Shown: positions 10,239 to 63,918 of the stretch, one piece after another
Position numbering within the stretch: position 1 is the first letter of the stretch
Layout: every line of letters begins with the position of its first letter
Assembly (NCBI GenBank): GCA_030390025.1
Contig: CM059432.1
Span: 36,272,001-36,336,000 of the forward strand
Length of the DNA stretch: 64,000 nucleotides
Direction: 5' to 3'
Source of the DNA: Squalus acanthias
Taxonomy: Eukaryota
Notes under the pieces: generated by a model
What the model was told of the DNA's origin: nothing
Databases searched by the model: none
The model's input: only the letters and a program-made list of their open reading frames with translations
Position numbers and translations under genes: made by a program

Positions 10239-12900
10239 TCAGTACCCTGTCCCTGCTTTCTCCCCATATCCCTTGATCCCTTTAGCCTTAAGAAATATAT
10301 CTAACTCCTTCTTGAATATATTTAATGAATTGGCCTCAACTGCCTTTTGTGGTAGAGAATTCCACAGGTTCACCACTCTCTGGGTGAAGAAATTCCTCAT
10401 CTCTGTCCTAAATGGCTTACCCCTTATCTTTAGACTGTGACCCCTGGTTCTGGACTCGCCCGCCATCGGGAACATCCTTCCTGCACCTAGTCTGTCTAGT
10501 CCTGTTAGAATTTTATAAGTTTCAATGAGATCCCCTCTCATTCTTCGAAACTCCAGCGAATATAAGCCCAATCGACCCAATCTCTCCTCATACGTCATTC
10601 CTGCCATCCCAGGCATCAGTCTGGTGAATCTTCGCTGCACTCCCTCCATGGCAAGAACATCCTTCCTCAGATAAGGCGACCAAAACTGCACACAATACTC
10701 AAGGTGTGGTCTTACCAAGGGCCTGTACAACTGTAGCAAGACATCCTTGCTCCTGTACTCAAATCCTCTCGCTATGAAGGCCAACATACCATTTGCCTTC
10801 TTAACCGCCTGCTGCACCTGCATGCTTACCTTCAGCGACTGGTGCACAAGGACACCCAGGTCTCGTTGCACTTCCCCTTCTCCCAATCTATTGCCGCTCA
10901 GATAATAATCTGCCTTCCTGTTTTTGCGACCAAAGTGGATAACCTCGCATTTATCCACATTATACTGCATCTGCCTAATCACCCAACCTGTCCAAATCAT
11001 ACTGGAGTTTCTCGGCATCCTCCTCACAGCACACACGCCCACCCAGCTTTGTGTCGTCTGCAAACTTGGAGATATTACATCTAGTTCCCTCGTCTAGATC
11101 ATCAATATATATTGTGAATAGCTGGGGTCCCAGCACCAATCCCTGCGGTACCCCACTAGTCACTGCCTGCCACTCGGAAAAAGACGCGTTTATTCCAACT
11201 CTTTGCTTCCTGTCTGCCAACCAGTTCTCTATCCAAGTCAGTACCTTACCCCCAATCCCATGTGCTTTAACTTTGCACGCTAATCTCTTATGCGGGACCT
11301 TATCGAAAGCCTTCTGAAAGTCCAAATACACCACATCCACTGGTTCTCCCTTATCTATTCTACCAGTTACATCCTCAAAAAATTCCAGTAGATTAGTCAA
11401 GCACGATTTACCTTTTGTAAATCCATGTTGACTTTGTCCGATCCTGTCACTGTTTTCCAAGTGCTCTGCTATTACATCTTTTATAATGGATTCTAGCATT
11501 TTCCCCACTACCGATGTCAGGCTTACCGGTCTATAATTCCCCGTTTTCTCTCTACCACCTTTTTTAAATAGTGGGGTTACATTAGCTACCCTCCAATCCA
11601 TGGGAACTGTGCCTGAGTCTATAGAATTTTGGAAGATGACCAGCAATGCATCTACTATTTCTAGGGCCACTTCCTTAAGTACCCTAGGATGTAGATTATC
11701 AGGCCCTGGGGATTTATCGGCCTTCAATCCCATCAATTTCCCTAACACCATTTCCCTACAAATACTGATTTCATTCAGTTCCTCCCTCTCATTAGACCCT
11801 ATGTTCCCCGACATCTCTGGGAGGTTATTTGTGTCCTCCTTTGTGAAGACAGAACCAAAGTATGTATTTAATTGGTCAGCCATTTCTTTGTTCCCCATTA
11901 TAAATTCCCCTGATTCTGACTGCAAGGGACCTACGCTTGACTTCACCAATCTTTTTCTCTTCACATATCTATAGAAGCTTTTACAGTCAGTTTTTATGTT
12001 CCCTACAAGCTTACTCTAATACTCTATTTTCCCCCTCTTAATTAATCCTTTTGTCCTCCTTTGCTGAATCCTAAACTGCTCCCAATCCTCAGGTTTGCTG
12101 CTTTTTCTGGCCAATTTATATGTCCTCTCCTTGGATCTTACGCTATCCCTAATTTCCCTTGTTAGCCACGGTTGCACCACCTTTTTGTTTTATTTTTATG
12201 CCAGACAGGGATGAACAAATTCTGTCGTTCATCCATGCGATCTTTAAATGTTTGCCATTGCCTATCCACCGTCAACCCTTTAAGTAACGTTCACCAATCC
12301 ATCCTAGCTAACTCGCGCCTCATACCATCGTAGTTTCCTTTACTTAAATTCAGGACCCTAGTCTCTGAGTCAACTACTTCACTCTCCATCTTAATGAAGA
12401 ATTCTATCATATTATGATCACTCCTCCCCAAGGGGCCTCGCACAACAAGATTGCTAATCTCATTACATAATACCCAGTCTAAGATGGCCTGATCTCTAGT
12501 TGGTTCCTTGACATATTGGTCCAGGAAACCATCCCGTATACACTCTAGGAATTCCTCCTCCACAGTATTGTTACTAATTTGGTTAGCCCAAGCTATATGT
12601 AGATTAAATATTGAATACCCCGGATGTTGAATTCCCAGCCTTGGTCACCCTGGAGCCATGTCTCCATAATTCCAATTATATCATATCCGTTTACATCTAT
12701 TTGCACAGCTAATTCATCCTCGCATTAAGACACAAAGCCTTCAGGCTTGTTTTTTTAACACTCTTAGTCCTTTTAGAATTATTATTTACTGTGGCCCTGT
12801 TTGATTTACACACTTGATTTCTCTGCCTTCCACTTTTGCTTTTCTCCTTCCTGTCTTTTGCTTCTATCCTTGCTTCCCTTTCCTCTATCTCCCTGCACAG
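10239..12900 (-). pseudogene. CR1 ORF2 (partial APE endonuclease plus RT), frameshifted
   Basis: PTRDQAILD and LGRSDHNMI (endonuclease); [12 protein letters not shown] and FADD (RT); split into ORFs 12291-12563, 10975-11964 and 10239-11063. Confidence 0.9.
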
Positions 12901-13086
12901 GTGCGCAACCCCCTGCCATTTTAGTTTAAACCCTCCCCAACAGCACTAGCAAACACTCTCCCTCGGACATCGGTCCCGGGCCTTCCCAAGGTGCAAACCG
13001 TCCAGTTTGTACTGGTCCCACCTCCCTCAGAACCGGTTCCAATGACACAGGAATTTGAATCCCTCCCCCTTGCACCATTCCTCTCG

Positions 13087-13866
13087 TCACGTATTCATTT
13101 GAAATATCCTTCTATTTCTACTCTGACTAGCACGTGGCACTGATAGCAATCCTGAGATTACTACCTTTGAGGTCCTATTTTTTAATTTACCTCCTAACTC
13201 CCTATATTCAGCTTTTACGACCTCATCCCGTTTTTTACCTATATCGTTGATACCTATATGCACCACAACAGCTGGCTGTTCACCCTCCCCCTCCAGAATG
13301 CCCTGCAGCCGCTCCAAGACATCCTTGACCCTTGCACCAGGGAGGTAACATACCATCCTGGAGTCTCGTTTGCGGCCGCAGAAACGCCTATCTATTCCCC
13401 TTACAATAGAATCCCCTATCACTATAGCTCTCCCGCTCTTTTTCCTCCCGCCCTGTGCAGCAGAACCACCCATGGTGCCAGGAAGATGGCTACTGCTGCC
13501 TTCCCCCGATAAGCCATCTCCCCCAACAATATCCAAAGCGGTATATCTGTTTGAGAGGGGGATGGCCACAGGGGACCCCTGCACTACCTGCCTGCGCCTA
13601 GTACTCTGCCTGGCGGTCACCCATTCCCTTCCTGCCTATGCAGCCTTTACCTGCGGTGTGACCAATTGCCTAAACGTGCTATCCATGATGTCCTCAGCAT
13701 CGCGAATGCTCCAGTATGTATCCATTCGCAGAGCCGCAATGCGGCCTGCCAGTAGCTGCAGCTGGATACACTTCCTGCACACATGGTCGTCAGGGACATA
13801 GGAAATGTCCCTGATTTCCCACATAGTGCAGGAGGAGCATGCCACGGGGCCGAGCTGTGCTGTCAT
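13087..13866 (-). pseudogene. CR1 ORF1: zinc finger plus SGNH/GDSL esterase, disrupted
   Basis: CSSCTMW...CRKC; LSNRYTAL; IVIGDSIVRG; LPGARV; VHIGINDI. Confidence 0.88.
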
Positions 13867-18236: not shown

Positions 18237-20532
18237 GTAAAAAAAAGTTAAAATAATTTGCTTTTAATTTTTTTAAATGTATTGCTTGGGGCATTCCATT
18301 ATTAGGGTGTGTTTTGTTGTGATTGAGTGAACCTGTCAAAATGTGTCATTTAGCTTTTTTTTTACATTTGTATTTAAATTAACTTGTGTGTTGATGGTGT
18401 CTGGTGCAATGCAGATTTAGTTTTATTAAAGTATATAGTATAAAGTATTTTGTAATTGGTATGTGTATGCTAATATTTTTATTTCCATTGTGTTGTATTT
18501 GTTATGTACTGTGTTATGTCTTGGGGGTGGGAATGCAGTTGTAATAGAATGGGTGTGGCAACAGAAGAAGCAGGGGGTTAGGCCATCCAGCATAGACTTG
18601 TCTAATCCATTGCACCGATTCAATGGATTAAATTAAATTTTATGGGGAAAGAGGAGATGGGTAAATGATCCACTATAAGAAATGTCTTTTTTAACTGGGA
18701 TGGGGGTGAGAATAGTTTAAGGCAAGCTCCCTATTGCTGTTGGGAGATGATGAATAAGCAGAGGTTGAAGTGACCAGCCATTGTTTCATCTTGTTTGTGT
18801 ATGTTGCACTTGTACATATCATAGATTAACTTTCCCCCCCTCTCATCCAGTTTTAACTATACAGTGAACTTTAAACAGTTAATAGGAATACATAAGTAGT
18901 ATAATTCCATGGCTGTTTTGAAATCAGTATTCAGTTTGCAGGATGAGTGGAATTGTCTCCCAGACAGGGTAGATGGGAGTACTCTCACCACGTGGACTGC
19001 AGCGGTTCAAGAAGGCAGCTCACCGCCACCTTCAAGGGAAACTAGGGATGTGCAATAAATGCTGGCCTTGCCAGTGACGCCCACATCCCATGAATGAATA
19101 AAATAAAAAGATGCTGAGAGGCTGTTTCCCCTGGCTGGAGAGTCTAGAACTAGAGGTCATAGGCTCAGGATAAAGGGTCAGCCATTTAGGACTGAGATGA
19201 GAAATTTCTTCACTCAGAGTTGTGAATCTTTGGAATTCTCTACCCCAGAGGGCTGTGGGTGCTCTGCCGTTGAGTATATGCAAGGATGAGATCGATAGAT
19301 TTTTGGACTTTGCTCTGCATCCAGCTGTTGGGAGCTGGGGCATGAGAGGTGACTGAACTAGAGTTAATTTACCCCTTGTGATTCATCCAGTTTGTTTTCC
19401 CTCATGAAGGAATAGTCTCAACTTGCTTGGCATCATCCTAATGGCCTAGTTGAGACTTGAAAGTTGACAATTAGGAAAACCACAAGTGTGAATATATGTA
19501 CTGGTGTGCGGTGTCCTTCCATACAATCTTCACACCTGAGGAAGCCGTTCAGGCTGGCTTTGTTGGAGCATGTGGTGCCATTGGGTTAGTAGGCAAGATT
19601 GGAGCCATAATTTATGCACCGCTGCTCCTGCACATTGGGTGAATTTTCTGATCTTAACTGAATGGAGGCTGAATGCTTCCCTGGTGTATATGTGTGGTGG
19701 GGGAGAAGGAATCCAAGGGGAAATCACCTAAACTGCTTGTGTGTTACTCTTGGTGGTCTGTTCCAAAGTGACATTTGGCAGAGCTGTAATGCAGGCTCCA
19801 AGCCTATTTCAGTCTGGAAGGCAATTGGTATTAGGTAGGGAAGAAGGAAGCAAGAGTTGAAAGAATAAGAAATTGTGTGTGGGGGCTAAGGTGGGTTTAA
19901 GATTGTGAACTGTCTATACATGATGTGTGGTGAGCTAGTACCCAGTATGTTAGAACAGGGTATCCATGGTTGTGGCACTTGGGGAAGGGGGGCTGCTGAT
20001 AGTGACTCTATGCAGAGTGTACCTCACGCTATGACTAAGCTCATTTAAACTGGCACTATTCAGTTTTATTGCTCTGGAGGTTTTGTTTTGCCCAAAAATG
20101 TTCCTAATCTTTGATTATCCCGAGTGTTGCATTGTTCTGCCTTGTGGTGGGCTGCCTGTGTGCAGGGGGCCTGTGTAAACAGCATAAGAGGCAGAAATAC
20201 GTTGGACTTGAGGATCCTAACCCTTTGCTGGTGACACTGCAATATCCCAGGATGGCTGCATTTTGTAAAGATTTTGCAACAACTGGATTACATTATCTAA
20301 TTAATGGCATCTGTCCAATTTAAGATTAACCCAGGCAAACTGAGTACCTCTAAAATGTGTATACAGTCCATATCAAGGTGTGAAATAACTACGGTTTTTT
20401 GTATGTATTAATATACAGTCATGCGCCGAATCACTTGTAAAGACACTTGCTTGCTGAGCCAATCCAGCTCCTAATTAGAGCTGGACTCCTCTTCACCGTC
20501 TCAGTAAAGTGAAGTCCTGACTATTGCTTGTG

Positions 20533-29359: not shown

Positions 29360-29570
29360 GAGGTGGCAAGGCAGTATATATTGCCCATCCCTAGTTTCAC
29401 TGAGGTAGTTAAGAGTCAACCACGTAGTGCAGGACTGGAGTCACATGTAGGCCAGACTGGGTAATGGTGCAAGTTCCCTTCCCTGAAAAACCAGTTGGGT
29501 TTTTAACAACAATCCAGTGTCTTTATCTTATTTTCTTTATGGTGCCAGCACATAAATTACCAGAAATTAC
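29360..29570 (-). mobile_element. Bipartite SINE related to the tRNA-headed LINE (decayed)
   Basis: TTGCCCATCCCTAG tail joined to AGTTAAGAGTCAACCAC...GGAGTCACAT from the 5' UTR. Confidence 0.7.
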
Positions 29571-29604: not shown

Positions 29605-32600
29605 AGGCCTGGACTAATGATCCGGAGACGTGAGTTCAAATCCCACCAAGGCAGCTGGGATATTTAAATTCAGTGAATTAAGTAAATCTGGAATAAAAAG
29701 CTAGTATCAGTAATGGTGACCATGAAACTATTGGATTGTCGTAAAAACCCATCTGGTTCACTAATGTCCTTCAGGGAAGGAAATCTGCCGTCCTTACCGG
29801 GTCTGGCCTATATGTGACTCCAGACCCACAGTAATGTAGTTGACTCTTAACTGACCTCTGAAATGGCCCAGCAAGCCACTCAGTTGTAACAAACCGCTAC
29901 GAAACACAATAATAAGAATAAAACTGGACAGAGCACCCGGCATCGACCTCGGCACCGGCTGCGAACACGACAACGGCACACCCAGCTCAGTCGACCCTGC
30001 AAAGTCCTCCTCACCAACATCTGGGGACTTGTGCCAAAATTGGGAGAGCTATCCCACAGATTAGTCAAGCAACAGCCTGACATAGTCACACTCATAGAAT
30101 CATACCTTTCAGCCAATGTCCCAAACTACACCATCACCATCCCTGGGTATGTCCTGTCCCACCGGCAGGACAGACCCACCAGGGGTGGCGGCACAGTGGT
30201 ATACAGTCGGGAAGGAGTGGCCCTGGGAGTCCTCAACATTGACTCCGGACCCCATGAAGTCTCATGGCTTCAGGTCAAGCATGAGCAAGGAAACCTCCTG
30301 CTGATTACCACCTACCACCCTCCCTCAGCTGATGAATCAGTACTCCTCCATGTTGAACACCACTTGGAAGAAGCACTGATTAGCAAGGGCACAGAATGTA
30401 CTCTGGGTGGGGGACTTCAACGTCCATCACTAAGAGTGGCTCGGTAGCACCACTGCTGGCCGAGTCCTGAAGGACATAGCTGTCAGTCTGGACCTGCGAT
30501 AGGTGGTGAGAGAACCAACACGAGGGAAAAACCTACTTGACCTCGCCTCACCAATCTACCTGTCGCAGATGCGTCTGTCCATGACAGTATTGGTAGCAGT
30601 GACCACCGCACAGTCATTGTGGAGACGAAGTCCCGTCTTCACACTGAGGACACCCTCCATCGTGTTGGGTGCCACTCCCACCGTGCTAAATGGGATAAAT
30701 TCAGAACTGATCTAGCAGCTCAAAACTGGGCATCCATGAGGCGCTGTGGGCCATCAGCAACAGCAGAATTGTATTCCACCACAATCTGTAACCTCCTAAC
30801 CCGGCATATCTCTCACTCTACCATTACCATTAAGCCAGGGGACCAACCCTGGTTCAATAAGGAGTGTAGAAGAGCATGCCAGGAGCAGCACCAAGCGTAC
30901 CTAAAAATGAGGTGCCACCCTGGGGAAGCTGCAACACAGAACTACGTGCATGCTAAAAAGCGGAAGCTGCATGCTATAGACAGAGCTAAATAATCCCACA
31001 ATTAACGGATCAGATCAAAGCTCTGCAGTCCTGCCGCATCCAGTCATGAATGGTGGTGGACCATTAAACAACTAACGGGAGCAGGAGGCTCCATGAATAT
31101 CCCCATCCTCAATGATGGCGGAGCCCAGCACGTACGTGCAAAAGACAAGGCTGAAGCGTTTGTAACCATCTTCAGCCAGAAGTGCCGAGTGGATGATCCG
31201 TATCGGCCTCCTCCTGAGGTCCCCACCATCACAGAAGCCAGTCTTCAGCCAATTTGATTCACTCCACGTGATATCAAGAACCGGCTGAGCGTACTGGATA
31301 CAGCAAAGGCTATGGGCCCCGACAACATCTCAGCTGTTGTGCTGAAGACTTGTGCTCCAGAACTAGCTGTGCCTCTAGCCAAGCTGTTCCAGAACAGCTA
31401 TAACACTGGCATCTATCCGACAATGTGGAAAACTGCCCAGGTATGTCCTGTCCACACAAAGCAGGACAAATCCAATCCGGCCAATTACTGCCCCATCAGT
31501 CTACTCTCAATCATCAGCAAAGTGATGGAAGGTGTCACCGACAGTGCTATCAAGCGGCATTTGTTCACCAATAACCTGCTCACTGATGCCCAGTTTGGGT
31601 TCCGCCAAGACCACGGCTCCAGACCTCATTACAGCCTCGGTCCAAACATGGACAAAGGAGCTGAATTCCAGAGGTGAGGTGAAAGTGACTGCCCTTGACA
31701 TCAAGGCAGCATTTGACCGAGTGTGGCATCAAGGAGTCCTAGTAAAACACAAGTCAATGGGAATCGGGGGGGGAGGGGGGAAACCTCTCCACTGGCTGGA
31801 GTCATACCTAGCAGAAAGGAAGATGGTTGTGGTGGTTGGAGGTCAATCATCACAGCCCCAGGACATCGCTGCAGGAGTTCCTCAGTGCAGTGTCCTAGGC
31901 CCAACCATCTTCAGCTGCTTCATTAATGACCTTCCCTCCAACATAAGGTCAGAAATGGGGACATTCGCTGATGACTGCAGTGTTCAGTGCCATTCACAAC
32001 TCCTCAGATAATGAAGCAGTCCATGCCCGCATGCAACAAGACATGGACGACGTTCAGGCTTGGGCTGATAATTGGCAGGTAACATTCGCGCCACACAAGT
32101 GCCAGGCAATGACAATCTCCAACAAGCAAGCGTCTAACCATCGCCCCATGACATTCAATGGCATTTGCATCGCCGAATCCCCCCACCATCAATATCCTGG
32201 GGTCACCATTGACCAGAAACTTAACTGGACCAGCCACTTAAATACTGTGGCAACAAGAGCAGGTCAGAGGCTAGGTAGTCTGCAGCGAGTGTCTCACCTC
32301 CTGACTCCCCAAAGCCTTTCCACCATCTACAAGGCACAAGTAAGGAGTGTGATGGAATACTCTCCACTTGTCTGGATGAGTGCAGCTCCAGTAACACTCA
32401 AGAAGCTCGACACCATCCAGGACAAAGCAGCCGGTTTGATTGGCACCCTATCCACCAGCTTAAAAAAAAAAAAAATTCACTCCCTCCACCACCGGCGTAC
32501 CGTGGCTGCAGTGTGTACCATCTACAAGATGCACTGCAACAACTCGCCAAGGCTTCTTTGGAAGCACCTCCCAAACCCGCGACGTCTTCCATCTAGAAGG

Positions 32601-32860
32601 ACGGGGCAGCAGGCGCATGGGAACACCACCACCTCCAAGTCACACACCATCCTGACTTGGAAGTATGTCGCCTTTCCTTCATTGTCGCTGGGTCAAAATC
32701 CTAGAACTCCCTCCCTAACAGCACTGTGGGAGTACCTTCACCATACGGACTGCAGTGGTTCAAGAAGGTGGCTCACCACCACCTTCTCGAGGACAATTAG
32801 GGATGGGAAATAATGGTGCCAGTGACACCCACATTCCATGAACGAATATTTAAAAAAAAA
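29605..32860 (+). mobile_element. Near full-length single-ORF EN-RT LINE (CR1 group, possibly Zenon-like) with tRNA-type head
   Basis: B box GTTCAAATC at 29634-29642; ATG at 29863; endonuclease VLLTNIWGL, RQDRPTRGGG and TYHPPS; RT PDNISAVVLK, DIKAAFDRVWH and GVPQCSVLGP; A-rich end. Confidence 0.92.
29863..32760 (+). pseudogene. APE endonuclease plus reverse transcriptase single ORF, disrupted
   Basis: GAAATGG start is in frame with ORF 30031 (TAA at 29887 is TAC in the 50-kb copy); continues through ORFs 30619, 31312, 31532 and 31971. Confidence 0.85.
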
Positions 32861-35393
32861 AACCTAGCTTGGGTTTATATTCAGTCTTGCAATGCACCCT
32901 GAGCATCATTTCTTGCCCAAGGGTGGTGAGCAGCTGCTTCCAGGGTTTATAATGCTACTCAAACTGTCTATTACATTGCTTGTATGAAATCTGTGGATTT
33001 CATCCAGTACTGACACATACTAAACTCTCCTGGTGTCATGTACTTGATGACTCACCCTTCGCTACAGGCCCTAAATTGAAACCTGTTATATGGGGAATTG
33101 GGGGAAAGCTGTATGGAGAGTTAGTACACTGACTCGTGCATCTATGCGCTGTAGCGGTCCCAGGTGCAAATCCCTGCTCTCCAGGTATTTTGCTGTGCTG
33201 AGGCTCTGAGGTTTGTGCATTTGTCTTGGAATCAAATTGTAAGTCAAAGTCAACTTTGGGCAGGAGTTGCAAAACTGCCTAATTTTGATGACTGAAAGCT
33301 GTGCAGCAAAATATTGCTCGTTGTTCACTATATTTATAAAAAAAACACTGCAGGTTCGCACAAAGCCATTTGAATTTGTGCATGTATCTTTTAAAAAAAA
33401 AATATAAACACTAGTGGCACTCTCAACTTCTGCTATTTCAGAGGATGGGATGTTTTTTTCAAAAAAAGGATTATGCCATCTGAGACAATGTGTTCTGCAA
33501 ACTTACAGGACTGTAACTAAAATAATAATAAGCCTACAAAGTATAATTGTGCTTTTTTATAATGGGTCTTATTGATAAAGTGCAATGGGGAAAGTGATGC
33601 AGGAAGTAGGTGTTACACTTACAAGGGAGTGTGTGCTATACCCAAGATTTAGAAATGTAGTAAACTTTGTACTGAAATCCTCCACCAAGTCTCGAGTACT
33701 GCCCTGTCTAATTTGGACTGGACAAATAATGGCTACCCTAGTCCAGTCATAATTCAAGTAGAACTGTGGCGGTCTTGAGATGAAGGGACAGATTTTCTTG
33801 TTGCACTCTGGTGTATTGGATCACCTGGGCATAGTGTATATTAGAAAATTGGGTAGGATTGCATTCTGCTACTGCCCCCCAACCTCCTCCCCAGGTTTTT
33901 TTCCTCTGCATTATGCTCAGGTGACCCAATGCAGCCAAGCACAATAACATGTAAATCTGCCTTGAAGTGTTTTCTCATGTGATGCTTCATCCTGGTGACC
34001 TGGTGTGAACTGACCCAAGTAAAGGATGTTGAGTGATGGTATATTTCCTGAGTAATCCTTTGCCTAGAAGTGAAGGGTTTAATCCTGGGTTTGTGGGTGA
34101 CTCTTTGCTCCAGTGGCAGTGGGTTTGTCTAATTTTTTTAAACCTTCATGCTATTTATTTTCTTTATTGCAATATCTGGCAGATGGCTATTAATGACTTA
34201 ATGGAGCTGAACAGATGTCGTTATAAACAACTGGAGCAAAGCTTGACAGTTTTTACTTTGGCAGAACCCTGCGATCAAGTTGCTGACAAACTAATTTGCT
34301 CTGATTGTTGGCTAAGAATGCTTGATATGATATGGTTATATTGAATAAAGCAGATGTAAGTGCTATAGGTCCCTAAGGTGTGTGTGATAGCCCATCATGG
34401 TAGTATGATACTTTTGTTAGATTTTTTGAGTGAGTAAATACTTTTTTTTTAGTTTTATCTCCTCCGGTGCCGAAGTTGTTGTCTCCTCCTGAAGTGCAAG
34501 GTTGAGAATTTTGAAGTCGGCTCCCTGGGGTACAGTATGCCACTGGAACCTGGAGAGGAGAGGCTGATGGGAGTGCAGGGCTTTGTGGGGGTAGAACATA
34601 GGCTACATCATTTTGGGTGAGTTGTAAGTGGTGGAAAATAGAGGAAGAAAGTTAGTGAAGGAGACTGGGGATTGTCCCCAAAATACTAAAAGTGTAATGG
34701 AAGTGTGAATTTTCACAGCTGCATTCTAGTTGTGTTTTCTCCCCATTCAGGAAGTGTAATGGGCATGCAAAATGCTGGCACTACATCAACTTGGATTCTG
34801 AAAAGAACTTGCAGTGCAGTTACAGATTTTCCTTCCCAATGTGGGTTGTATCTTGAGTACATTTTGAGCTGTTTTAACACAAAGTTGAGGTACTGGAGGT
34901 TACAGATCTGTTGGTGGAGTGAGCAGTTTGAGGTGCTGAATGAAGAGGTTCATGCTAAATGCACTTTAATTTGGTTGATTGGTCTTTTGTATTTGAAGAT
35001 GAATGAAAATCAGTCTTGATTGCTCCAGCAGCGGAGAAACTCTTCAATTTTGAGACCCAAACTGCTTATCTGGGGGTCGATGCGTTGCTGCTCTTCATGA
35101 TGCTATATTATCAGGAGTTCAATGTACTGGTGTTTGTACTGGCTGACCGTGCCATGTGTCTTTGCTTGCCGTGCTTGTAGTTACAGGTCTGACATTGGTA
35201 GTGGTTGTAGGAGCAATCTGAGGTGATGAGTTGGAGCATCACAAGCATATTGCACTAAATGTGTAAATGTTGTTTTGGGTACTAATGTATTCAAGGTAGT
35301 GACAAAACTGCATTTGTTAGTTTTGGGTGCTGTTCGTTTTAAATGGCTTCTTGACTTTAACTGAGGGGTGAATTCTTCATTTTGTGATTCATT

Positions 35394-36094: not shown

Positions 36095-36815
36095 ATTTAT
36101 TTTTTATTCGTTCATGGGATGTGGGCGGGACTGGCAAGGCCATCGTTTATTGCCCATCCCCAATTGTCCTCGAAGGTGATGGTGAGCCGCCGCCTTGAAC
36201 CGCTGCAGTCTGTGTGGTGAAGGTAAGCCCATAGTGCTGTTAGGGAGGGAGTTCCAGGATTTTGATACGGCGATATATTTCCAAGTCAGGATGATGTGTG
36301 ACATGAAGGGGAACTTGGAGGTGATGGTGTTCCCATGCACCTGCTGCCCTTGTCCTTTGGGATTTGCGATTTGGGAGGTGCTGTCGAAGAAGCCTTGGCA
36401 AGTTGCTGCAGTGCATCTTGTAGATGGTACACACTGCAGCCAAGGTGCGCTGGTGGTGGAGGGAGTGCCATTCAAGCGAGCTGCTTTGTCCTGGATGGTG
36501 TCGTGCGTCGAGTAGTGTTGGACCTGCACTCATCCAGGCAAGTGGAGAGTATTTCATCACACTCCTGACTTGTGTCTTGTAGATGGTGGAAAGGCTTTGG
36601 GGAGTCAGGAGGTGACACACTCGCCTCAGAATACCCCAGCCTCTGACTCGCTCTTGCAGCTACAGTATTTATGTAGCTGGTCCAGTTAAGTTTCTGGTCA
36701 ATGGTGACCCTCCCAGGATGTTGATGGTGGGGGATTCGGCGATGGTAATGCCATTGAATGTCAAGGGGCGGTGGTTAGACTCTCGCTTGTTGGAGATAGT
36801 CATTGCCTTGCACTT
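36095..36815 (-). mobile_element. 3' fragment of the single-ORF LINE family at 29605
   Basis: LLTPQSLSTIYKTQVRSVMKYSPLAW; tail GGATGGGCAATAAA. Confidence 0.9.
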
Positions 36816-39702: not shown

Positions 39703-42078
39703 ATTGGTACCCAATCCACCACCTTAAATATTCATCGACCATCTACAAGATGCACTGCAGCAACTCGCCAAGGCTTCTTTGGCAGCACCTCCTAAACCTG
39801 CAACCTCAACCACCTAGAAGGAAAAGGGCAGCAGGCGCATGGGAACACCTTCACCTGCAAGGTCCCCTCCAAGTCACTCACCATCCTGACTTGGAAGTGT
39901 ATCGCCGATCCTTCATCGTCGCTGGGTAAAAATCCTGGAACTCGCTCCCTAACAACACTGTGGGAGTACCTTCACCTCTCGGACTGCAGCGGTTCAAGGC
40001 GGCGGCTCACCACCTCTTTTCTTTTAGGCAGTCCCTCGGAACCGAGGATGACTTGCTTCCACACTAAAAATGAGTTCTCAGGTGACTGAGTCCAATGCGG
40101 GACCTACAGTCTCTGTCACAGATGGGGCAGACGATGGTTGAAGGGTCGAGTGGGTAGGGTGCTTGGGTTGACGTGCGCTCCTTCCGCTGTTTGTGCTTGG
40201 CTTCCGCTTGTTCCCGACGAAGAGACTCGAGGTGTTCGGCGCCTTCCCGGATACTTCTCCTCCACTTTGTGCGGTCTTGGGCCAGGGATTCCCAGGTGTC
40301 GGTGGGGATGTTGCACTTTTTCAAGGAGGCTTTGAGGGTGTCCTTGAAGCGTTTCCTCTGCCCACCTGGGGCTCTCTTGCAGTGTCAGAACTCCGAGTAG
40401 AGCGCTTGTTTTGGGAGTCTCGTATCGGGCATGCAGATGATGTGGCCGGTCCATCGGAGCTGATCGAGCGTGGTCAAAGCTTTGATGCTGGGATGTTGGC
40501 CTAAGCGAGAACACTGACGTTGGTGCGCCTATCCTGCCAATGGATTTGCAGGATCTTGCGGAGGCAGTGCTAGTGGTACCTCTCCAGTGCTTTGATGTGC
40601 CTGCTGTACATGGTCCATGTCTCTGAAGCATACAGGAGGGTGGGTATCACTACTGCTCTGTAGAGCATGAGCTTAGTGCTGGGTTTGAGGTCCTGGTCTT
40701 CAAACACTCTTCCTCAGGTGACCGAAGGCTGCACTGGCACACTGAAGGCTGTGTTGGACTTTGTCATCGATGTCTGCCCTTGTTGACAGTAGGCTCCCGA
40801 GGTATGGAAAGTGGTCCACGTTGTCCAAGGTCTCATCATGGATTTTGATAATCGGGGAGCAGTACTGTGTGGCGGGGGCCAGTTGGTAGAGGATCTTTGT
40901 CTTACGGATGTTTAGTGTAAGGCCCATGCTCTCGTCCGCTTCGGTGAATGTGTTGACAATGGTTTGGAGTTTGGCCTCTGCGCAGACGCAAGTGTCGTCT
41001 GCATACTGTAATTCGACAACAGAGGATGGGACGACCTTGAATCTGGACTGGAGGTGACGGAGGTTGAACAGTTTCCCGTTTGTCCTGTAGATTAGCTCCA
41101 CTCCAGCGGGGAGCTTACTGAGGGTGAGATGGAGCATTGCAGCCAGGAAGATCGAGAAGAGCGTTGGTGCGATGACACAGCCTTGCTTGACCCCGGTCCA
41201 TACGTGAATTGGGTCTGTGGTGGATCCGTTGGTCAGGATCACGGCTTGCATGTTGTCGTGACAAACTTTTGAGGGCAGCCGAATTTGAGGAGAACACTCC
41301 ATAATCCCTCACGGTTGACGGTGTTGAAGGCCTTTGTGAGGTCAAAGAAGGCCATGTGCAGCGGTTGGTGCTGTTCCCTGCATTTCTCTTTTGTTAACGT
41401 GCGGTGAAGATCATGACCATTGTGCCCCTTATTGGGCGGAATCCACATTACGACTCTGGGAGGAGCTCTTCAGCCACTGGGAGAAGGCGATTGAGGAGGA
41501 TTCTTGCGATGACTTTCCCTGTGGCAGACAGCAGGGAGACTCCTCTGTAATTACTGCAATCGGACTTGTCACCTTTCTTGAAGGTGGTCACAGTTACAGT
41601 GTCTGAGATCCCCTGGCATGCTCTTCTCCTTCCAAATAAGAGAAATGAGTTCATGTATTCGCACCAATAGTGCTTCTCCACCATATTTTAGCGCCTCAGT
41701 GGGGATTCCATCTGCTCCTGAGGCCTTGTTCTTCAGTTGTTGGATGGCCTTTTCAACCTCATGCCGGGCTGGGGTTGTGCTGCGGTGGTGGCGGGTAGCA
41801 TGCTGCGGGATGGAGTTGAGGACACTCGCATCGAAGACAGAGTCTCGGTTAAGGAGATCTTCGAAGTGCTCCTTCCAGCGGGCACTGACGTGCAGCTCTC
41901 TGTCCTTGATGAGTACCTCTCCGTTCTTTGCCCGCAGTGGGGTAGGACCTTGGGTGCTTGGGCCGTAGGTGGTCTTGACTGCGCTCACCACCACCTTCTC
42001 AAGGGCAATTAGGGATGGGCAATAAATGCTGGCCTTGCCAGCGACTCCCACATCCCATGAATGAATAATTTAAAAAAA
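39703..42078 (+). mobile_element. 3' fragment of the single-ORF LINE family, split by an RTE insertion
   Basis: 39703-40014 and 41983-42078 are collinear with ~32440-32860. Confidence 0.85.
40015..41982 (-). mobile_element. 5'-truncated RTE-clade LINE
   Basis: 10-bp TSD GCTCACCACC (40005-40014, 41983-41992); KASGADGIPTE, FFDLTKAFNTVNRE, GVKQGCVIAPTLF and LQYADD; C-terminal CPICDRDC..SHLRTH zinc finger. Confidence 0.93.
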
Positions 42079-43278: not shown

Positions 43279-43999
43279 GTAGATGGATATATAGCCCTCG
43301 TTTACTAGGTTGAGAGCTACTTGCTAAGATTGAATTGATCTTGTTGAGAGATGTGTTTAGTGTTTTGGTATGCTATTATGCTGTAGAAAAATAATGTTTA
43401 AGCCAATTCACTTTAATGTTCAGTGGTATTCCTCATCACTGCAAATTGGGGTCTCCACCGGTGACTCTGACCTGTAACCACCACTTCACCCTGATGTTGT
43501 AGAGCTCATGTTCTTTCCAGACATGGTCAAAGTTAGGAATGGCAAAATCTGTAATTATACCCATACAGATGAACGTTTCTCATAAATGAAGTAGACATAA
43601 AAAATTGTACATATACTTTACTGAAATCCTAATGACTGCTCAGTGGGCGGACTAATGCCACTCTCTCTGCTGAATCACATATGCAGACTCTATAATATGC
43701 CTTCAATAAATGGCTGTGTGTTTGGTGCAGTGAGTGCATTGTAATGGTGGAACAGTATTGTGTATAATGCTCACATTCATGAGTATACATGCTATACCTG
43801 GACTAAAAACTATAAATGAGATTGAATGAAATTCAGAGTTGGTAGATGTTTGAATTCTTCACCAATGCAGTAAATTTAGATTTCTTTACTTTCTCGCACA
43901 AAGGTCTTTGTCATACTGGGATAGTTTGAATATTAGAGAGATGAAGTTCAGGTGGACCAAATGGTCCATTCTACCCTTAACACTTATGTTTTTAAAAAT

Positions 44000-44340
44000 G
44001 AATTCTCTGGATGTGAGCACCACTGCAAGGCACTTATTACGTATCCCTAGTTGTCCTTGTACAACTTCAGAGGGCAGTTAAGAGTCAACCACGTTGGTAT
44101 CGGACTAGTGTCCCATATATATGGCAGACTGGGTAAGGATGGCAGATTTCCTTCCCTGAAGGACTTTAGTGAACCGGTTGGGTCTTAATGACAATCTGAT
44201 AACTTCATGGTCACTTTTTACTGATGCCAGCTTTTTATTTACAGATTTATTTATTTTTTTTAAACCAAATTTAAATTCTCAGACTGGGATTTGAAATTAC
44301 GTTCTCTGGATTACTAGTCCAGTAATATAACCACTGCACA
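44000..44340 (-). mobile_element. Bipartite tRNA-headed SINE (5' head/UTR plus 3' tail of the single-ORF LINE)
   Basis: The - strand starts GTGCAGTGGTTATATTACTGGACTAGTAATCCAGAG, matching 49995-50030, and ends with a CTAGGGATACGTAATAAG tail-like sequence. Confidence 0.8.
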
Positions 44341-45254: not shown

Positions 45255-46330
45255 GTTTCCCCCCCCCCCCCCTTCTCCACTTCCTTCCCCCCCCCTTCTC
45301 CACTTCCTTCCCCCCCCCCTCTCCACTTCCTTCCCCCCCCCCCTTCTCCACTTCCTTCCCCCCCCCCCTTCTCCACTTCCTTCCCCCCCCCCTTCTCCAC
45401 TTCCTTCCCCCCCCCCTTCCACCCTTCCCCCCCCCTTCTCCACTTCCTTCCCCCCCCCTCTCCACTTCCTTCCCCCCCTCCCACTTCCTTCCCCCCCCCT
45501 TCTCCACTTCCTTCCCCCCCCCTTCTCCACTTCCTTCCCCCCCCCTTCTCCACTTCCTTCCCCCCCCTTCTCCACTTCCTTCCCCCCCCTTCTCCACTTC
45601 CTTCCCCCCCCCCCACTTCCTTCCCCCCCCTTCTCCACTTCCTTCCCCCCCTTCTCCACTTCCTTCCCCCCCTTCTCCACTTCCCCCCCCCCCTCCACTT
45701 CCCCCCCCCTTCTCCACTTCCTTCCCCCCCTTCTCGACTTCCTTCCCCCCCCTTCTCCACTTCCTTCCCCCCCTTCTCCACTTCCTTCCCCCCTTCTCCA
45801 CTTCCCTTCCCCCCCCTTCTCCACTTCCTTCCCCCCCCTTCTCCACTTCCTTCCCCCCCCTTCTCCACTTCCTTCCCCCCCCCTTCTCCACTTCCTTCCC
45901 CCCCCCTTCTCCACTTCCTTCCCCCCCCCTTCTCCACTTCCTTCCCCCCCCCTTCTCCACTTCCTTCCCCCCCCTTCTCCACTTCCTCCCCCCCCTTCTC
46001 CACTTCCTTCCCCCCCCCTTCTCCACTTCCTTCCCCCCCCCCTTCTCCACTTCCTTCCCCCCCCCCTTCTCCACTTCCTTCCCCCCCCCCTTCTCCACTT
46101 CCTTCCCCCCCCCCTTCTCCACTTCCTTCCCCCCCCCCTTCTCCACTTCCTTCCCCCCCCCCTTCTCCACTTCCTTCCCCCCCCCCTTCTCCACTTCCTT
46201 CCCCCCCCCCTTCTCCACTTCCTTCCCCCCCCCCCTTCTCCACTTCCTTCCCCCCCCCCCTTCTCCACTTCCTTCCCCCCCCCTTCTCCACTTCCTTCCC
46301 CCCCCCTCTCCACTTCCTTCCCCCCCCGCC
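45255..46330. repeat. Polypyrimidine minisatellite, unit ~TTCTCCACTTCCTT(C)6-11
   Basis: About 1.07 kb of tandem ~20-26-nt units, almost all C/T on +. Confidence 0.97.
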
Positions 46331-49983: not shown

Positions 49984-52025
49984 GGGGAACGGTAGCATAG
50001 TGGTTATGTTACTGGACTAGTAATCCAGAGGCCTGGACGAATGATCTGGAGACGTTTCAAATCCTACCACGGCAGCTGGGGAATTTAATTTCAGTTAATT
50101 AAATAAATCTGGAATAAAAAAAGCTAGTATCAGTAATGAAACTACCGGATTGTTGTAAAAACCCATCTGGTTCACTAATGTCCTTTAGGCGAGGGAGTCT
50201 GGTCTGGCCTATATGTGACTCCAGACCCACATGGTTGACTTTTAACTACTCTCTGAAATGGCCTAGCAAGCCACTCGGTTGTACCAAACCGCTACGAGAA
50301 ACAATAATAAGAATAAAATCGGACGGACCACCCAGCATCAACCTTGGCACTGGCTTCAGACATGACAAAGGCACACCTAGTCCAGTCAACCCTGCAAAGT
50401 CCTCCTCACTAACATCTGTGGACTTGTGCCAAAATTGGGAGAGCTGTCCCACAGACTAGTCAAGCCTGACATAGTCATACTCACAGAATCATACCTTTTA
50501 GCCAACGTCCCAGACTCCTCCTCCACTATCCCTGGATATGTCCTGTCCCACTACCACCATGCTAAATGGGATAGATTCAGATCTAGCAGCTCAACACTAG
50601 GCATCCATGAGGCGCTGTGGGGCAGCAGCAGACTTGTATTCCATCACAATCTGTAACCTGGCATATCCCTCACTCTACCATTACCATCAAGCCAGGGGAT
50701 AAACCCTGGTTCAATGAGGAGTGTGGAAGATCATTCCAGGAGCAGCACCAGACGTACCTGAAAATGAGGTGCCAACCAGGGGAAGCTGCAACACAGGACT
50801 ACATGCATGCTAAACAGCGGAAGCAGCATGCTATAGACAGAGCTAAGTGATCCCACAACCAACGGATCAGATCAAAGCTCTGCAGTCCTGCCACATTCAG
50901 TCGTGAATGGTGATGGACAATTAAACAACTAACTGAAGGAGGAGGCTCCATGAATACCCCATCCTCAGTGATGGCGGAGTCCAGTACACGAGTACAAAAG
51001 GCAAGGCTGAAGAGTTTGCAACCATCTTCAGCCAGAAGTACCGAGTGGATGATCCAGCTCGGCCTCCTCCTGAGGTCCCCACCATCACAGAAGCCAGTCT
51101 TCAGCCAATTCGATTCACTCCACGTGATATCAAGAAACGGCTGAGCGCACTCGATACAGCAAAGGCTACAGGCCCGACAACATCTTGGCTGTCGTGCTGA
51201 AGACTTGTGCTCCAGAATTAGCCGCGCCTCTAGCCAAGCTATTCCAGTACAGCTACAACACTGGCATCAACCTGACAATGTGGAAAACTGCCCAGGTATG
51301 TCCTGTCCACAAAAAGCAGGACAGATCCAATCCGACCAATTACTGCCCCATCTGTCTACTCTTAATCATCAGCAAAGTGATGAAAGGTGTCGTCGACAGT
51401 GCTATCAAGCGACACTTGCTTAACAACAACCTGCTCGCCAATGCTCAGTTTGGGTTCCGCCAGGACCACTCTGCTCCAGACCTCATTACAGCCTTGGTCC
51501 AAACATGGACAAAAGAGCTGAATTCCAGAGGTGAGGTGAGAGTGACTGCCCTTGACATCAAGGCAGCATTTGACCGAGTGTGGCATCAAGGAGCCCTAGT
51601 AAAATTGAAGTCAATGGGAATTGGGGAAAACTCTCCACTGGATTGAGTCATACCTAGCACAAAGGAAGATGGTTGTGGTGGTTGGAGGTCAATCATCTCA
51701 GCCCAGGACATTGCTGCAGGAGTTCCTCAGGGCAGTGTCCTAGACCCAACCATCTTCAGCTGCTTCATTAATGACTGTCCCTCCAACATAAGGTTAGAAG
51801 TGGGGATGTTCGCTGATAATTGCAGTGTTGAGTTCCATTTGCAACTCCTCAGACAATGAAGCAGTCCATGCCCGCATGCAACAAGACCTGGATGATATTC
51901 AGGCTTGGGCTAGTAAGTGGCAAGTAACATTCGTGCCACACAAATGCCAGACAATGACCTTGGGGATGGGCAATAAATGCTGGCCTTGCCAGCGACGCCC
52001 ACATCCTGTGAACGAATTAAAAAAG
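49984..52025 (+). mobile_element. Internally deleted copy of the tRNA-headed single-ORF LINE, retaining both ends
   Basis: Starts GGGGAACGG then A box TAGCATAGTGG (49993-50003); degenerate B box at ~50055; EN and RT pieces; at ~51960 it jumps directly to the 3' tail. Confidence 0.92.
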
Positions 52026-52094
52026 GACTGCTGACACTGTCAAGTATGAGAAGTCGCACAACACCAGGTTATAGTCCAACAGATTTATTTGATT

Positions 52095-52133
52095 TTACAA
52101 GCTTTCGGAGCAGTTCGCTCCTTCGTCAGGTAA
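52095..52133 (-). ncRNA. Minimal hammerhead-ribozyme-like motif (left arm)
   Basis: Reverse complement of 52202-52240. Confidence 0.7.
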
Positions 52134-52201
52134 GTTTAGCAGTGAGAGAATCTCCCAGAATTCACAATTGTGAATTCTGGGAGATTCTCTCACTGCTAAA
52201 C

Positions 52202-52240
52202 TTACCTGACGAAGGAGCGAACTGCTCCGAAAGCTTGTAA
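52202..52240 (+). ncRNA. Minimal hammerhead-ribozyme-like motif (right arm)
   Basis: UUAC-CUGACGA-A-GGAGC(GAACU)GCUCC-GAAA-GC-UU-GUAA. Confidence 0.7.
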
Positions 52241-63203: not shown

Positions 63204-63577
63204 GCTAATTCTGTGTTTCCTGTACGAGGACACCTAAATCTCTCAACACCAATATTTAATAGTTTCTCGCCATTTAAAAATATTCTTCCTACCAAAATGA
63301 ATAACCTCACATTTCCCCACGTTATACTCCATCAGCCACCTTATTGCCCACTCACTTAACCTGTTTATATCCCTTTTCAAAATCGTGCTATTATAGTATA
63401 CTGTCTTTCCATATTAGTCTTCCCAAAGTGTATCACTTCACACTTCTCTGCATTGAACTCCATCTGCTATGCTTCTGCCAATTTCACAATCCTGTCTGTC
63501 ATCCTGAAGTCTACAACTTTCCTCATCACTATCTACTATGCTACCAAGTTTCGTATCATTTTTTAAAAATTCAGTCA

Positions 63578-63918
63578 AGGGAAGCCAACATTTATTGCCC
63601 ATCCCTAATTGCCCTCGAGAAGGTGGTGGTGAGCCGCCTTATACAACTGATTTGCTTGCTAGGCCATTTCAGAGGGCAGTTAAGAGTCAACCACATTGCT
63701 GTGGCTCTGAAGTCACATATAGGCCAGACCGTGTAAGGGCAGCAGATTTCCTTTCCTAAAGGACATTAGTGAACCAGATGAGTTTTTACGACAATCCAGT
63801 AGTTTCATGGTTGCCATTACTGATACTAGCTTTTTATTGCAGATTTATTTAATTAACTGAATTTAAATTCCCCAGCTTGTGGTGAGATTTGAACTCATAT
63901 CTCCGGATCATTAGTCCA
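63578..63918 (-). mobile_element. Bipartite SINE (LINE 5' UTR joined to LINE 3' tail)
   Basis: On -: TGGACTAATGATCCGGAG..GAGTTCAAATC..GAAATGGCC..CAGTTGTAT | AAGGCGGCTCACCACCACCTTCTCGAGGGCAATTAGGGATGGGCAATAAATG. Confidence 0.85.

What the first reader, a model, noticed from the sequence alone, without database searches (positions are those of the whole stretch)
29605..32860. Candidate RNA polymerase III-transcribed LINE: tRNA-type head and no T4 terminator in 3.25 kb
Seen in sequence: this single-ORF EN-RT LINE starts with a tRNA-type internal promoter. The sister copy has A box TAGCATAGTGG at 49993-50003, about 10 nt after its GGGG start; this copy has B box GTTCAAATC at 29634-29642. Both independent copies have this head fused to the same UTR and ORF, so it is not a chance neighbouring SINE. 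Reading 29605-32860 by eye I found no TTTT on the sense strand, whereas AAAA runs are frequent and the CR1 at 5865-7671 has many TTTT. The two TTTT in the 50-kb copy (~50240, ~50496) are at positions where this copy has a C (GACTCTTAAC, ACCTTTCAG), consistent with post-insertion C>T decay. Fragments 36095-36815 and 39703-40014 also show none. Established knowledge: runs of four or more T terminate vertebrate Pol III, and LINEs normally use Pol II promoters. Inference: an autonomous retrotransposon under selection for full-length Pol III read-through. That would require cap-independent translation from the ATG at 29863. I do not know whether this has been described.
Basis: partly seen in the sequence, partly recalled or inferred. 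Interest (0 to 1): 0.88.

Follow-up and report, generated by a model that had tools for sequence, protein, structure and literature searches.

The report
LINE retrotransposon with tRNA-type head
A very abundant, now dead jumping gene of a cartilaginous-fish genome starts with the tRNA-like promoter that normally marks tiny parasitic SINEs, and it is unusually free of the T-runs that stop RNA polymerase III, so it may be the first protein-coding retrotransposon copied by that polymerase.

Summary
The 3.3-kb element at 29605-32862 belongs to a family with at least 10,022 genomic copies of one EN motif. In two samples chosen without reference to the head, 21 of 71 copies start at base 1-7 of a tRNA-Thr(AGT)-derived head with unrelated DNA upstream. 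No headless full-length class was seen.

A 23-copy majority sequence (3313 nt) has a 973-codon open frame and no T4+ run. That zero is weak on its own: P=0.02 mononucleotide shuffle, 0.21 dinucleotide, 0.11 synonymous-codon. However, the family is the extreme among relatives. All 45 near-full relatives carry 6-42 T4+ runs. Its observed/expected T-run ratios are the lowest of 32. A-runs are normal.

Two headed subfamilies differ with pN/pS 0.36, so headed elements were coding and autonomous. SINEs in the window are internal-deletion derivatives.

One correction: the ATG at 29863 is not the ORF start. The long frame has no AUG where relatives have Met1.

Pol III transcription is the most economical reading (about 0.5) but is untested. 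RNA data were uninformative. My literature searches found only one passing remark on tRNA-like sequence in an RTE LINE.

The parts
29605..29650 (+). Copy A: 3' half of the tRNA-derived head (the copy lacks the first ~45 nt). B box GTTCAAATC at 29634-29642.
   Evidence: Aligned with full heads of L002-L008 and copy B.
29651..29889 (+). Copy A: 5' UTR ('body'), shared with the SINE derivatives. Holds the ATG at 29863, which opens only a 3- to 8-codon uORF.
   Evidence: Only 1 difference in 233 nt between the two subfamily majority sequences.
29890..32813 (+). Copy A: decayed EN-RT reading frame, in open pieces 29890-30447, 30541-30993, 31258-31677, 31526-32011 and 31947-32813. AP-endonuclease part about 29990-30600; RT about 31460-32200.
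   Evidence: Pfam Exo_endo_phos_2 and RVT_1 on better-kept copies L035 and L014.
32814..32862 (+). Copy A: short 3' UTR tail ending in A11.
49984..50078 (+). Copy B: complete head starting GGGGAACGGTAGC. A box 49993-50003. Anticodon-type loop CTAGTAA. Small deletion in the T arm.
   Evidence: Rfam tRNA 21.7 bits (gathering score 29), E=0.05.
50079..52024 (+). Copy B: UTR, ORF with internal deletions (copy A 30162 to 30669, and 32113 to the tail) and A-rich end.
63565..63918 (-). SINE-type internal-deletion derivative. Head (5'-truncated) plus UTR plus ORF start region are joined to the last ~50 nt of the ORF plus the tail.
   Evidence: copy A 29610-29888 joined to 32765-32813, 89-94% identity.
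43990..44340 (-). Older SINE of the same build (81% identity to the UTR). Its head has a single anticodon arm and its deletion junction is different.
36105..36815 (-). 5'-truncated older copy (3' 760 nt of the LINE).
   Evidence: 79-87% identity.
39738..40014 (+). Fragment of the 3' part of the ORF.
41983..42078 (+). Tail fragment (LINE or SINE).
18974..19100 (+). Tail fragment (LINE or SINE).
29395..29487 (-). Inverted fragment of the UTR/body of an older relative, just upstream of copy A.

Best explanation
This is a high-copy, now extinct family of autonomous LINEs. Each element has a single long frame with AP endonuclease and reverse transcriptase, about 3.3 kb, and a short A-rich tail.

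The RNA began at the first base of a SINE-type head derived from tRNA-Thr(AGT). Shown: the head is the inherited 5' terminus, and the ORF of headed lineages was under purifying selection.

Inferred: the founder arose when a cDNA of a LINE was extended onto a small tRNA-like RNA (template switch). From then on the head's A and B boxes placed RNA polymerase III at base 1. Because the sense strand carries no T4+ terminator, Pol III could read through all 3.3 kb into the flank. That transcript served as retrotransposition template and probably as an uncapped messenger. The messenger would be translated from a non-AUG codon, or by another unconventional start, at a low but sufficient level.

Internal deletions of this headed LINE produced the SINEs that share its head, 5' UTR and tail.
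For: 1. 5' terminus.
- 10 of 39 and 11 of 32 copies, sampled through ORF sequence, start at family position 1-7.
- Their upstream DNA is unrelated, and they include old copies of 71-88% identity.
- No second class of full-length ends was seen.
- L026 has a 23-bp TSD.

2. Promoter motifs.
- TAGC(A/G)TAGTGG starts at position 9 and GAGTTCAAATCC lies about 60 nt further on. The consensus motifs I compare them with are recalled.
- ARAGORN calls L030 tRNA-Thr(agt).
- Rfam tRNA scores 21.5-22.3 bits in 3 of 6 further heads and 21.7 bits in copy B, all below the gathering score of 29.

3. Autonomy.
- The 23-copy majority sequence has a 973-codon open frame.
- Two subfamily majority sequences, both headed, differ by 28 synonymous and 32 non-synonymous changes: pN/pS 0.36, binomial p=9e-5.
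- Head alleles travel with ORF alleles.

4. T-runs.
- 0 T4+ and 7 T3+ in 3313 nt, against 14 A4+ and 46 A3+. TT odds ratio is 0.71 and AA 0.99.
- Both subfamily sequences have 0 T4+.
- 23 decayed copies have 0.26 T4+ per kb.
- All 45 near-full relatives from metagenomes have 6-42 T4+ in the ORF, with TT odds 0.89-1.21.
- Observed/codon-shuffle ratios are 0.45 (T3) and 0 (T4). These are the lowest of 32; the relatives' minima are 0.78 and 0.59.
- Four of the six other LINE RT fragments of the window (plus one fragment's ORF1, also tabulated) have TT odds 1.05-1.15 with T4+ slightly below or near the Markov expectation (3-6 observed vs 4.4-5.5). The short 8560-9060 fragment has TT odds 1.27 with 2 T4+ observed vs 2.6 expected.

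5. Translation.
- The frame has ACC where relative P0002 has Met1.
- 8 ATGs lie upstream in the 5' UTR. This is not what a scanning-dependent capped mRNA would favour.
Against: - No direct evidence on polymerase, cap or transcript length.
- Zero T4 is not significant when dinucleotides (P=0.21) or codon usage (P=0.11) are held fixed. The depletion also affects T3 and TT, which Pol III termination alone does not require.
- One other window LINE fragment (40116-41308) also has low T and no T4 in 1.2 kb.
- AATAAA stands at family positions 3260 and 3303, as in Pol II LINEs.
- The 5' UTR is far more conserved than synonymous sites. That could equally mark an internal Pol II promoter.
- The UTR does not fold better than shuffles (z=+0.72), so a structured IRES is not indicated.
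- From recalled knowledge, natural Pol III transcripts of 3 kb that are translated are not known.
Confidence: 0.5

Rival explanations
1. Pol II makes the LINE RNA. An internal promoter in the strongly conserved 5' UTR (perhaps helped by factors bound to the head) starts Pol II at or very near base 1. The head is a historical passenger, used as a Pol III promoter only in the short SINE derivatives. The low T content is a compositional quirk of this lineage.
For: - 5' UTR: 1 difference in 233 nt between subfamilies, against 4% at synonymous sites.
- AATAAA in the tail.
- Zero T4 is not significant against codon and dinucleotide shuffles.
- By the literature read, LINEs are Pol II units (PMC10886601 and PMC5786205, passages).
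Against: - A Pol II promoter of a formerly headless LINE would start at its old +1. Only 3 of 71 sampled copies end at positions 92-96, against 21 at 1-7.
- A start exactly at the tRNA +1 is what A/B boxes give.
- The T-run depletion is strand-specific and absent from 45 relatives.
- There is no AUG start and there are 8 upstream ATGs.
Confidence: 0.2
2. The LINE RNA starts inside the UTR (Pol II). The head is added again at many insertions, when the cDNA switches template onto abundant SINE RNA that shares the 233-nt UTR.
For: - SINE and LINE share head, UTR and tail.
- A small cluster of 5' ends lies at 253-275: 8 of 39, two of them one duplicated locus, and 2 of 32.
- Template-switch chimeras with small RNAs are documented for L1 (bioRxiv 10.1101/2025.02.02.635956, passages).
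Against: - Head alleles (sites 21, 32, 64) are linked to ORF-defined subfamilies. Co-existence in time could mimic this linkage.
- About 30% full-length headed copies would need very efficient switching.
- It does not explain the T-run depletion of the ORF.
Confidence: 0.12
3. The headed 3.3-kb copies are long non-autonomous passengers ('giant SINEs'), mobilised in trans by a separate headless LINE. Their ORF is irrelevant.
For: - The tail is recognised in trans, as the SINE derivatives show.
- The frame has no AUG.
Against: - pN/pS 0.36 between headed subfamilies, and an open 973-codon majority frame.
- No headless full-length class among 71 sampled copies.
Confidence: 0.06
4. The 'head' is target DNA: a site-specific LINE that inserts into tRNA genes or SINE heads.
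For: Site-specific LINEs in small-RNA genes exist (recalled).
Against: - DNA upstream of the head and downstream of the A tail is unrelated between copies.
- The L026 TSD encloses the head.
- No SINE remainder follows the tail.
Confidence: 0.01

Closest known systems
tRNA-derived SINEs whose body and tail come from the 5' and 3' UTRs of a partner LINE (CoeSINE4/5, SINE2_Gav, WALLSI2, Bov-tA/Bov-B; Kojima 2018, PMC5786205, passages read)
   Same: Same three modules: tRNA head, LINE 5' UTR and LINE tail. The short elements at 63565-63918 and 43990-44340 are of exactly this build.
   Different: Here the full coding LINE carries the head too, and it is the abundant form. Kojima's model adds the head to an already deleted bipartite LINE and assumes Pol II for the LINE. 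The partner LINEs there are RTE or Vingi. This one is collinear with CR1-like ORFs at 29% identity.
[quoted passage not shown]
   Same: A LINE consensus that contains tRNA-like sequence.
   Different: The paper treats it as a nuisance hit and removes it. No position, promoter, copy-number or T-run analysis is given. The host is an insect and the clade is RTE. I could not see the sequence.
HE1 SINE / HER1 LINE of sharks and rays (Ogiwara 1999; seen only as a table row in PMC3747384; the paper is not held)
   Same: A cartilaginous-fish tRNA-derived SINE that shares its tail with a CR1-like LINE.
   Different: Whether this family is HER1/HE1 could not be tested, because no sequence was available. 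From the table row, only a shared tail is reported, not a shared head or 5' UTR.
R2 elements: co-transcribed with 28S rRNA by Pol I, 5' end cut by an HDV-like ribozyme, uncapped RNA translated unconventionally (recalled, not read here)
   Same: It works like this in principle: an autonomous LINE whose RNA is not made by Pol II and has no cap.
   Different: Different polymerase. R2 has no promoter of its own and is site-specific. This family carries its own internal promoter and inserts anywhere.
TRIMp3 (Helenus, Ajax, Cassandra): LTR retrotransposons with tRNA- or 5S-derived Pol III promoters (Kojima 2024, PMC10886601, passages)
   Same: A small-RNA gene promoter captured at the transcription start of a retrotransposon.
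   Different: Those are short, non-coding and non-autonomous.

Membership tests
Non-LTR retrotransposon (LINE) with AP endonuclease | AP-endonuclease and reverse-transcriptase domains in one frame | tested here: met
   Pfam Exo_endo_phos_2 (6.5e-12) and RVT_1 (2e-35) on L035 and L014 ORFs. 973-codon open majority frame.
Non-LTR retrotransposon (LINE) with AP endonuclease | Variable 5' truncation, A-rich or simple 3' end, variable target-site duplications | tested here: met
   5' ends are spread over positions 11-828, besides the mode at 1. Tails are TAAAA(n). One of 15 copies has an unambiguous 23-bp TSD and about 5 have short or imperfect ones.
CR1/L2-type LINE superfamily versus RTE clade | RT phylogeny with named reference elements | tested here: inconclusive
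   - The RT and C-terminal region are collinear over 515 aa (29% identity, E=5e-58) with the CR1-like ORF at 5954-7426. Bird proteins match at about 30%.
- The size, the single frame without ATG and the overlapping 48-codon ORF recall RTE (recalled).
- No named reference set was available.
tRNA-derived SINE (SINE2) | tRNA-derived 5' head with A and B boxes | tested here: met
tRNA-derived SINE (SINE2) | Short (under about 700 bp) and non-coding | tested here: not met
   The element is 3313 nt with an EN-RT frame under purifying selection. It is met only by the deletion derivatives.
Pol III type-2 transcription unit | A box about 8-12 nt after the start, and a B box 30-60 nt (tolerant) further on | tested here: met
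   The A box is at family positions 9-19 and the B-box-like GAGTTCAAATCC at about 72-83. The consensus motifs are recalled. The B box has one mismatch.
Pol III type-2 transcription unit | No T4+ run between start and intended end | tested here: met
   0 T4+ in the majority sequence and in both subfamily sequences. See the statistical caveats.
Pol III type-2 transcription unit | Transcription depends on TFIIIC/TFIIIB/Pol III, and the RNA has a 5' triphosphate | not testable with these tools
   No run on record as RNA. Contigs only.
HE1/HER1 pair | Sequence identity to the published HE1 SINE and HER1 LINE | not testable with these tools
   The paper is not held. Three short motifs of the element were found in no held paper.

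The most novel reading that the evidence does not exclude
An autonomous, protein-coding retrotransposon lineage that replaced the usual Pol II promoter by a tRNA-type internal promoter and was transcribed end to end by RNA polymerase III. It purged T-runs from 3.3 kb of sense strand to avoid termination. It translated its endonuclease-RT from an uncapped RNA without an AUG. It shed SINEs by simple internal deletion. On this reading some SINEs descend from headed LINEs, rather than from heads added to LINE fragments.
Probability: 0.45. Interest if true: 0.9.

Novelty: new variant of a known kind. Interest (0 to 1): 0.74.

Why it matters
Textbook and recent specialist statements assign LINEs to Pol II and SINEs to Pol III (PMC10886601 and PMC5786205, passages). 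This family is a LINE with at least ten thousand copies that carries the SINE promoter at its very first base, and its sequence looks shaped by Pol III termination.

If that reading is right, it would have three consequences:
- All three nuclear polymerases would be known to have been recruited by LINEs.
- It would give a natural case of a long, translated Pol III transcript.
- It would offer a concrete, testable route for the birth of SINEs with LINE-derived bodies: internal deletion of a headed LINE.

Even if Pol II proves responsible, the family documents a SINE/LINE composite that stayed autonomous through subfamily turnover.

Tried and rejected
- **RNA evidence.** No RNA holder is listed. 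The four runs laid were short contigs of uncertain kind, so no start, end, strand or level can be read from them. The only usable point is that contigs of runs labelled organisms A, B and D contain internal-deletion joints of the SINE type.
- **ARAGORN.** It found no tRNA in the window and none in 80 relatives. It also missed 7 of 8 shark heads, so it is too insensitive to exclude heads in relatives. The A/B-box regex found 0 of 45.
- **Folding.** Neither the head (z=-0.38) nor the 5' UTR (z=+0.72) folds better than shuffles. There is no sign of a cloverleaf or of a structured IRES.
- **TSD scan.** Strict patterns caught only 4 copies. A looser listing by eye covered 15.
- **Failed steps.** A fuzzy-regex scan of the start region timed out and was replaced by reading the alignment. 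A script error was repeated correctly.
- **Clade naming.** It failed. Protein hits are almost all unnamed.
- **Earlier notes of this scan.** They gave nothing on this element.
- **Literature.** Searches found no description of a tRNA-headed autonomous LINE or a Pol III-transcribed LINE. Repbase and Dfam could not be consulted. Ogiwara 1999 is not held.
- **Rejected readings.** Site-specific insertion into tRNA genes is rejected by the flanks and the TSD. A chance neighbouring SINE is rejected because the same junction occurs in every sampled copy.
Full report
**Where and what.** The window is part of a 3.7-Gb genome, G000:C8. Earlier notes of this scan call it a cartilaginous fish.

- Copy A runs from 29605 to an A11 run ending at 32862.
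- A BLAST of copy A against the window finds a sister copy at 49984-52024. That copy has the complete head and two internal deletions.
- It also finds 3' fragments at 36105-36815 (minus strand) and 39738-40014, and tail fragments at 18974-19100 and 41983-42078.
- At 63592-63918 (minus strand) there is a short element in which copy A positions 29610-29888 are joined directly to 32765-32813.
- An older element of the same build lies at about 43990-44340 on the minus strand.

- Copy A has no T4+ run and 14 A4+ runs.
- Copy B has T4 only at 50240 and 50496, where copy A and the family majority have C.
- The fragment at 36095-36815 is on the minus strand. On its sense strand it has none either.

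**Is the head part of the element?**

- The first 296 nt have 4846 first-look candidates in the genome. The 40 scored are 92-100% identical.
- In all 7 other loci first returned, homology runs from the head into the ORF.
- Because that sample was chosen through the head itself, I drew two further samples.
- Sample 2 used an ORF-5' query (2080 first-look candidates). Among 39 loci, 10 start at family position 1-7 and 19 start within the head. The rest are spread over 124-341, with a small cluster of 8 at 253-275, two of which are one duplicated locus.
- Sample 3 took the first 33 genome matches to a degenerate pattern for the EN motif GDFNVHH, minus one locus already held. The pattern has 10,022 matches against 0 for the control.
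- Among these 32, 11 start at position 1-4, including old copies of 71-88% identity. The rest are truncated at 51-828.
- Upstream DNA is unrelated in every case.
- L026 carries a perfect 23-bp target-site duplication around head start and A tail. Among 15 copies with both ends, about 5 more show short or imperfect duplications by eye.
- No headless full-length class appeared. Only 3 of 71 copies end at 92-96.

**The head.**

- The family start reads GGGAACGGTAGC(A/G)TAGTGG... It has an anticodon-type stem-loop with loop CTAGTAA, a second near-copy of that arm, and GAGTTCAAATCCCAC.
- ARAGORN of 8 heads tRNA-Thr(agt).
- Rfam's tRNA model scores 21.5-22.3 bits in 3 of 6 heads and 21.7 bits in copy B, below the gathering score of 29.
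- The head does not fold better than shuffles. This is usual for SINE heads.
- The older SINE at about 44300 has a single anticodon arm.

**The coding part.**

- From 39 loci I kept 22 near-full-length ones plus copy A. The other 17 had large deletions or truncations.
- Their majority sequence is 3313 nt with column support around 0.95. It has a 973-codon open frame from position 330 to 3250.
- Pfam finds Exo_endo_phos_2 and RVT_1.
- All individual copies are broken. The longest ORF is 510 aa.
- The ATG at 29863 opens only ATG GCC TAG in the majority sequence.
- The long frame has no ATG before codon 287. Its basic N-terminus aligns with that of relative P0002 such that Met1 of P0002 faces an ACC codon.
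- An out-of-frame ATG at position 358 opens a 48-codon overlapping ORF.
- The RT and C-terminal region are collinear with the CR1-like ORF at 5954-7426 (29% identity over 515 aa).
- Database relatives are unnamed proteins of about 950 aa on contigs of about 3.5 kb, at 40-46% identity.
- I could not place the family in a named clade.

**Autonomy of headed lineages.**

- The 23 copies fall into subfamilies.
- I compared the majority sequences of 8 and of 9 copies. Two of the 9 are one duplicated insertion.
- They differ at 73 of 3313 sites.
- In the ORF there are 28 synonymous and 32 non-synonymous differences: pN/pS 0.36, binomial p=9e-5.
- The head has 6 differences in 96 nt.
- The 233-nt UTR has 1 difference, against about 9 expected at the synonymous rate of 4% (my arithmetic).
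- Head alleles at sites 21, 32 and 64 go with the ORF-defined groups.
- Both subfamily sequences start with the head and have no T4+.

**T-runs.**

- The majority sequence has T 19.6%, TT odds 0.71 and AA odds 0.99.
- It has 7 T3+ runs and 0 T4+ runs. For comparison it has 46 A3+ runs and 14 A4+ runs.

| Null model | Expected T4+ | P(0 T4+) | T3+ result |
|---|---|---|---|
| Mononucleotide shuffle | 3.9 | 0.019 | - |
| Dinucleotide shuffle | 1.5 | 0.21 | - |
| Synonymous-codon shuffle, 973 codons | 1.85 | 0.11 | 5 observed, 11.3 expected, P=0.0034 |
| Uniform synonymous codons | 5.1 | 0.0025 | - |

- A4, C4 and G4 runs are at expectation.
- So the bare zero is weak, but the depletion has two layers. 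One is a T-poor, C-rich codon usage. The other is avoidance of T-runs across codon junctions.

**Comparison with relatives and neighbours.**

- From 80 metagenome loci encoding relatives, I took the 45 with near-full matches. The other 35 were partial.
- All 45 have 6-42 T4+ in the ORF (958 in total, against 736 expected from base composition). Their TT odds are 0.89-1.21. None has an A/B-box pair upstream.
- For the 31 with uninterrupted frames, observed/codon-shuffle ratios have medians 0.98 (T3) and 1.02 (T4), with minima 0.78 and 0.59.
- The shark family scores 0.45 and 0, the lowest of 32.
- In the same window, four of the six other LINE RT fragments have TT odds 1.05-1.15 and T4+ slightly below or near the Markov expectation. 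The short 8560-9060 fragment has TT odds 1.27, and 40116-41308 is the exception with T 18%, TT odds 0.87 and no T4+ in 1193 nt.
- The 23 decayed copies carry 20 T4+ in 76.4 kb.

**SINE derivatives.**

- The two short elements in the window keep the head, the UTR and the tail, but have different deletion junctions.
- Contigs of three differently labelled organisms show several such joints.
- Both include the last codons of the ORF. They therefore descend from the LINE by internal deletion, and the older one shows that the headed build is old.

**Reading.**

- An element that passes its head on intact must be transcribed from head base 1.
- A promoter of a formerly headless LINE would start about 96 nt further in, and progeny would lose the head.
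- A/B boxes set the start a few bases upstream of the A box (recalled), which is where the copies begin.
- The same promoter in the same context drives the SINE derivatives.
- With no T4+ for 3.3 kb, Pol III that has started would be expected to run through.
- This, together with the strand-specific T-run depletion that is unique among relatives and the lack of an AUG, makes Pol III transcription the most economical explanation. I put it at about 0.5.
- It remains inference. I obtained no usable RNA data.
- AATAAA in the tail and the very conserved UTR fit a Pol II promoter as well.
- Repeated template switching onto SINE RNA is not excluded.

**What is known.**

- Kojima 2018 (PMC5786205, passages) shows SINE bodies derived from RTE and Vingi 5' UTRs. 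It proposes that heads are added to internally deleted LINEs transcribed by Pol II. [quoted passage not shown]
- Kojima 2024 (PMC10886601, passages) states that non-LTR elements are Pol II units. It describes non-autonomous LTR elements with Pol III promoters.
- A table in PMC3747384 lists the shark HE1 SINE with the HER1 LINE. I could not obtain those sequences, so identity with this family is open.
- A listing (abstract start only) reports cap structures on yeast pre-tRNAs (PMC13451320). That would soften the translation problem.
- Searches found no description of a headed autonomous LINE or of Pol III transcription of a LINE. Repbase and Dfam were not available.

**Verdict.** The structure is real, abundant and old, and it is a new variant of the SINE/LINE relationship. 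The Pol III mechanism is plausible and now sharply testable, but it is not shown.

Noticed in passing
window 45264-46327: About 1.06-kb tandem array of a 23-bp C/T-rich unit (47 copies, 93% matches). It reads open in all six frames.
   Followed up: partly
window 52041-52294: Perfect-type palindrome directly after copy B: two 127-nt arms, 98% complementary, with no spacer. Possibly a hairpin-forming mobile element or a foldback.
   Followed up: partly
window 10239-13635 (minus strand): Another LINE, with an RT frame (10239-12015) and, upstream, an ORF with a weak GDSL-lipase/esterase match (13087-13635). This is the ORF1 type of CR1/L2-like elements.
   Followed up: partly
window 5891-7435: CR1-like RT frame still open for 514 codons. 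It has normal T-run content (4 T4+), and I used it as an in-genome control.
   Followed up: partly
window 40116-41308 (minus strand): RT fragment of a different LINE (no tblastn match to the headed family) that is also T-poor: 18% T, no T4+ in 1193 nt. I did not examine whether it too has an unusual 5' end.
   Followed up: no
family positions 253-275 (window about 29812-29834): Small excess of 5' ends of truncated copies: 8 of 39 and 2 of 32. This could be a minor internal transcription start or a preferred stop of reverse transcription.
   Followed up: partly
family positions 97-329 (window 29651-29889): The 5' UTR shared by the LINE and its SINEs differs at 1 of 233 sites between subfamilies whose synonymous sites differ by 4%. 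This is strong constraint of unknown function, and it is not explained by RNA folding.
   Followed up: partly
L011 and L027 (G000:C13, about 54.91 and 54.99 Mb): Two copies share the same upstream flank. They are one insertion carried in a segmental duplication about 80 kb apart.
   Followed up: no
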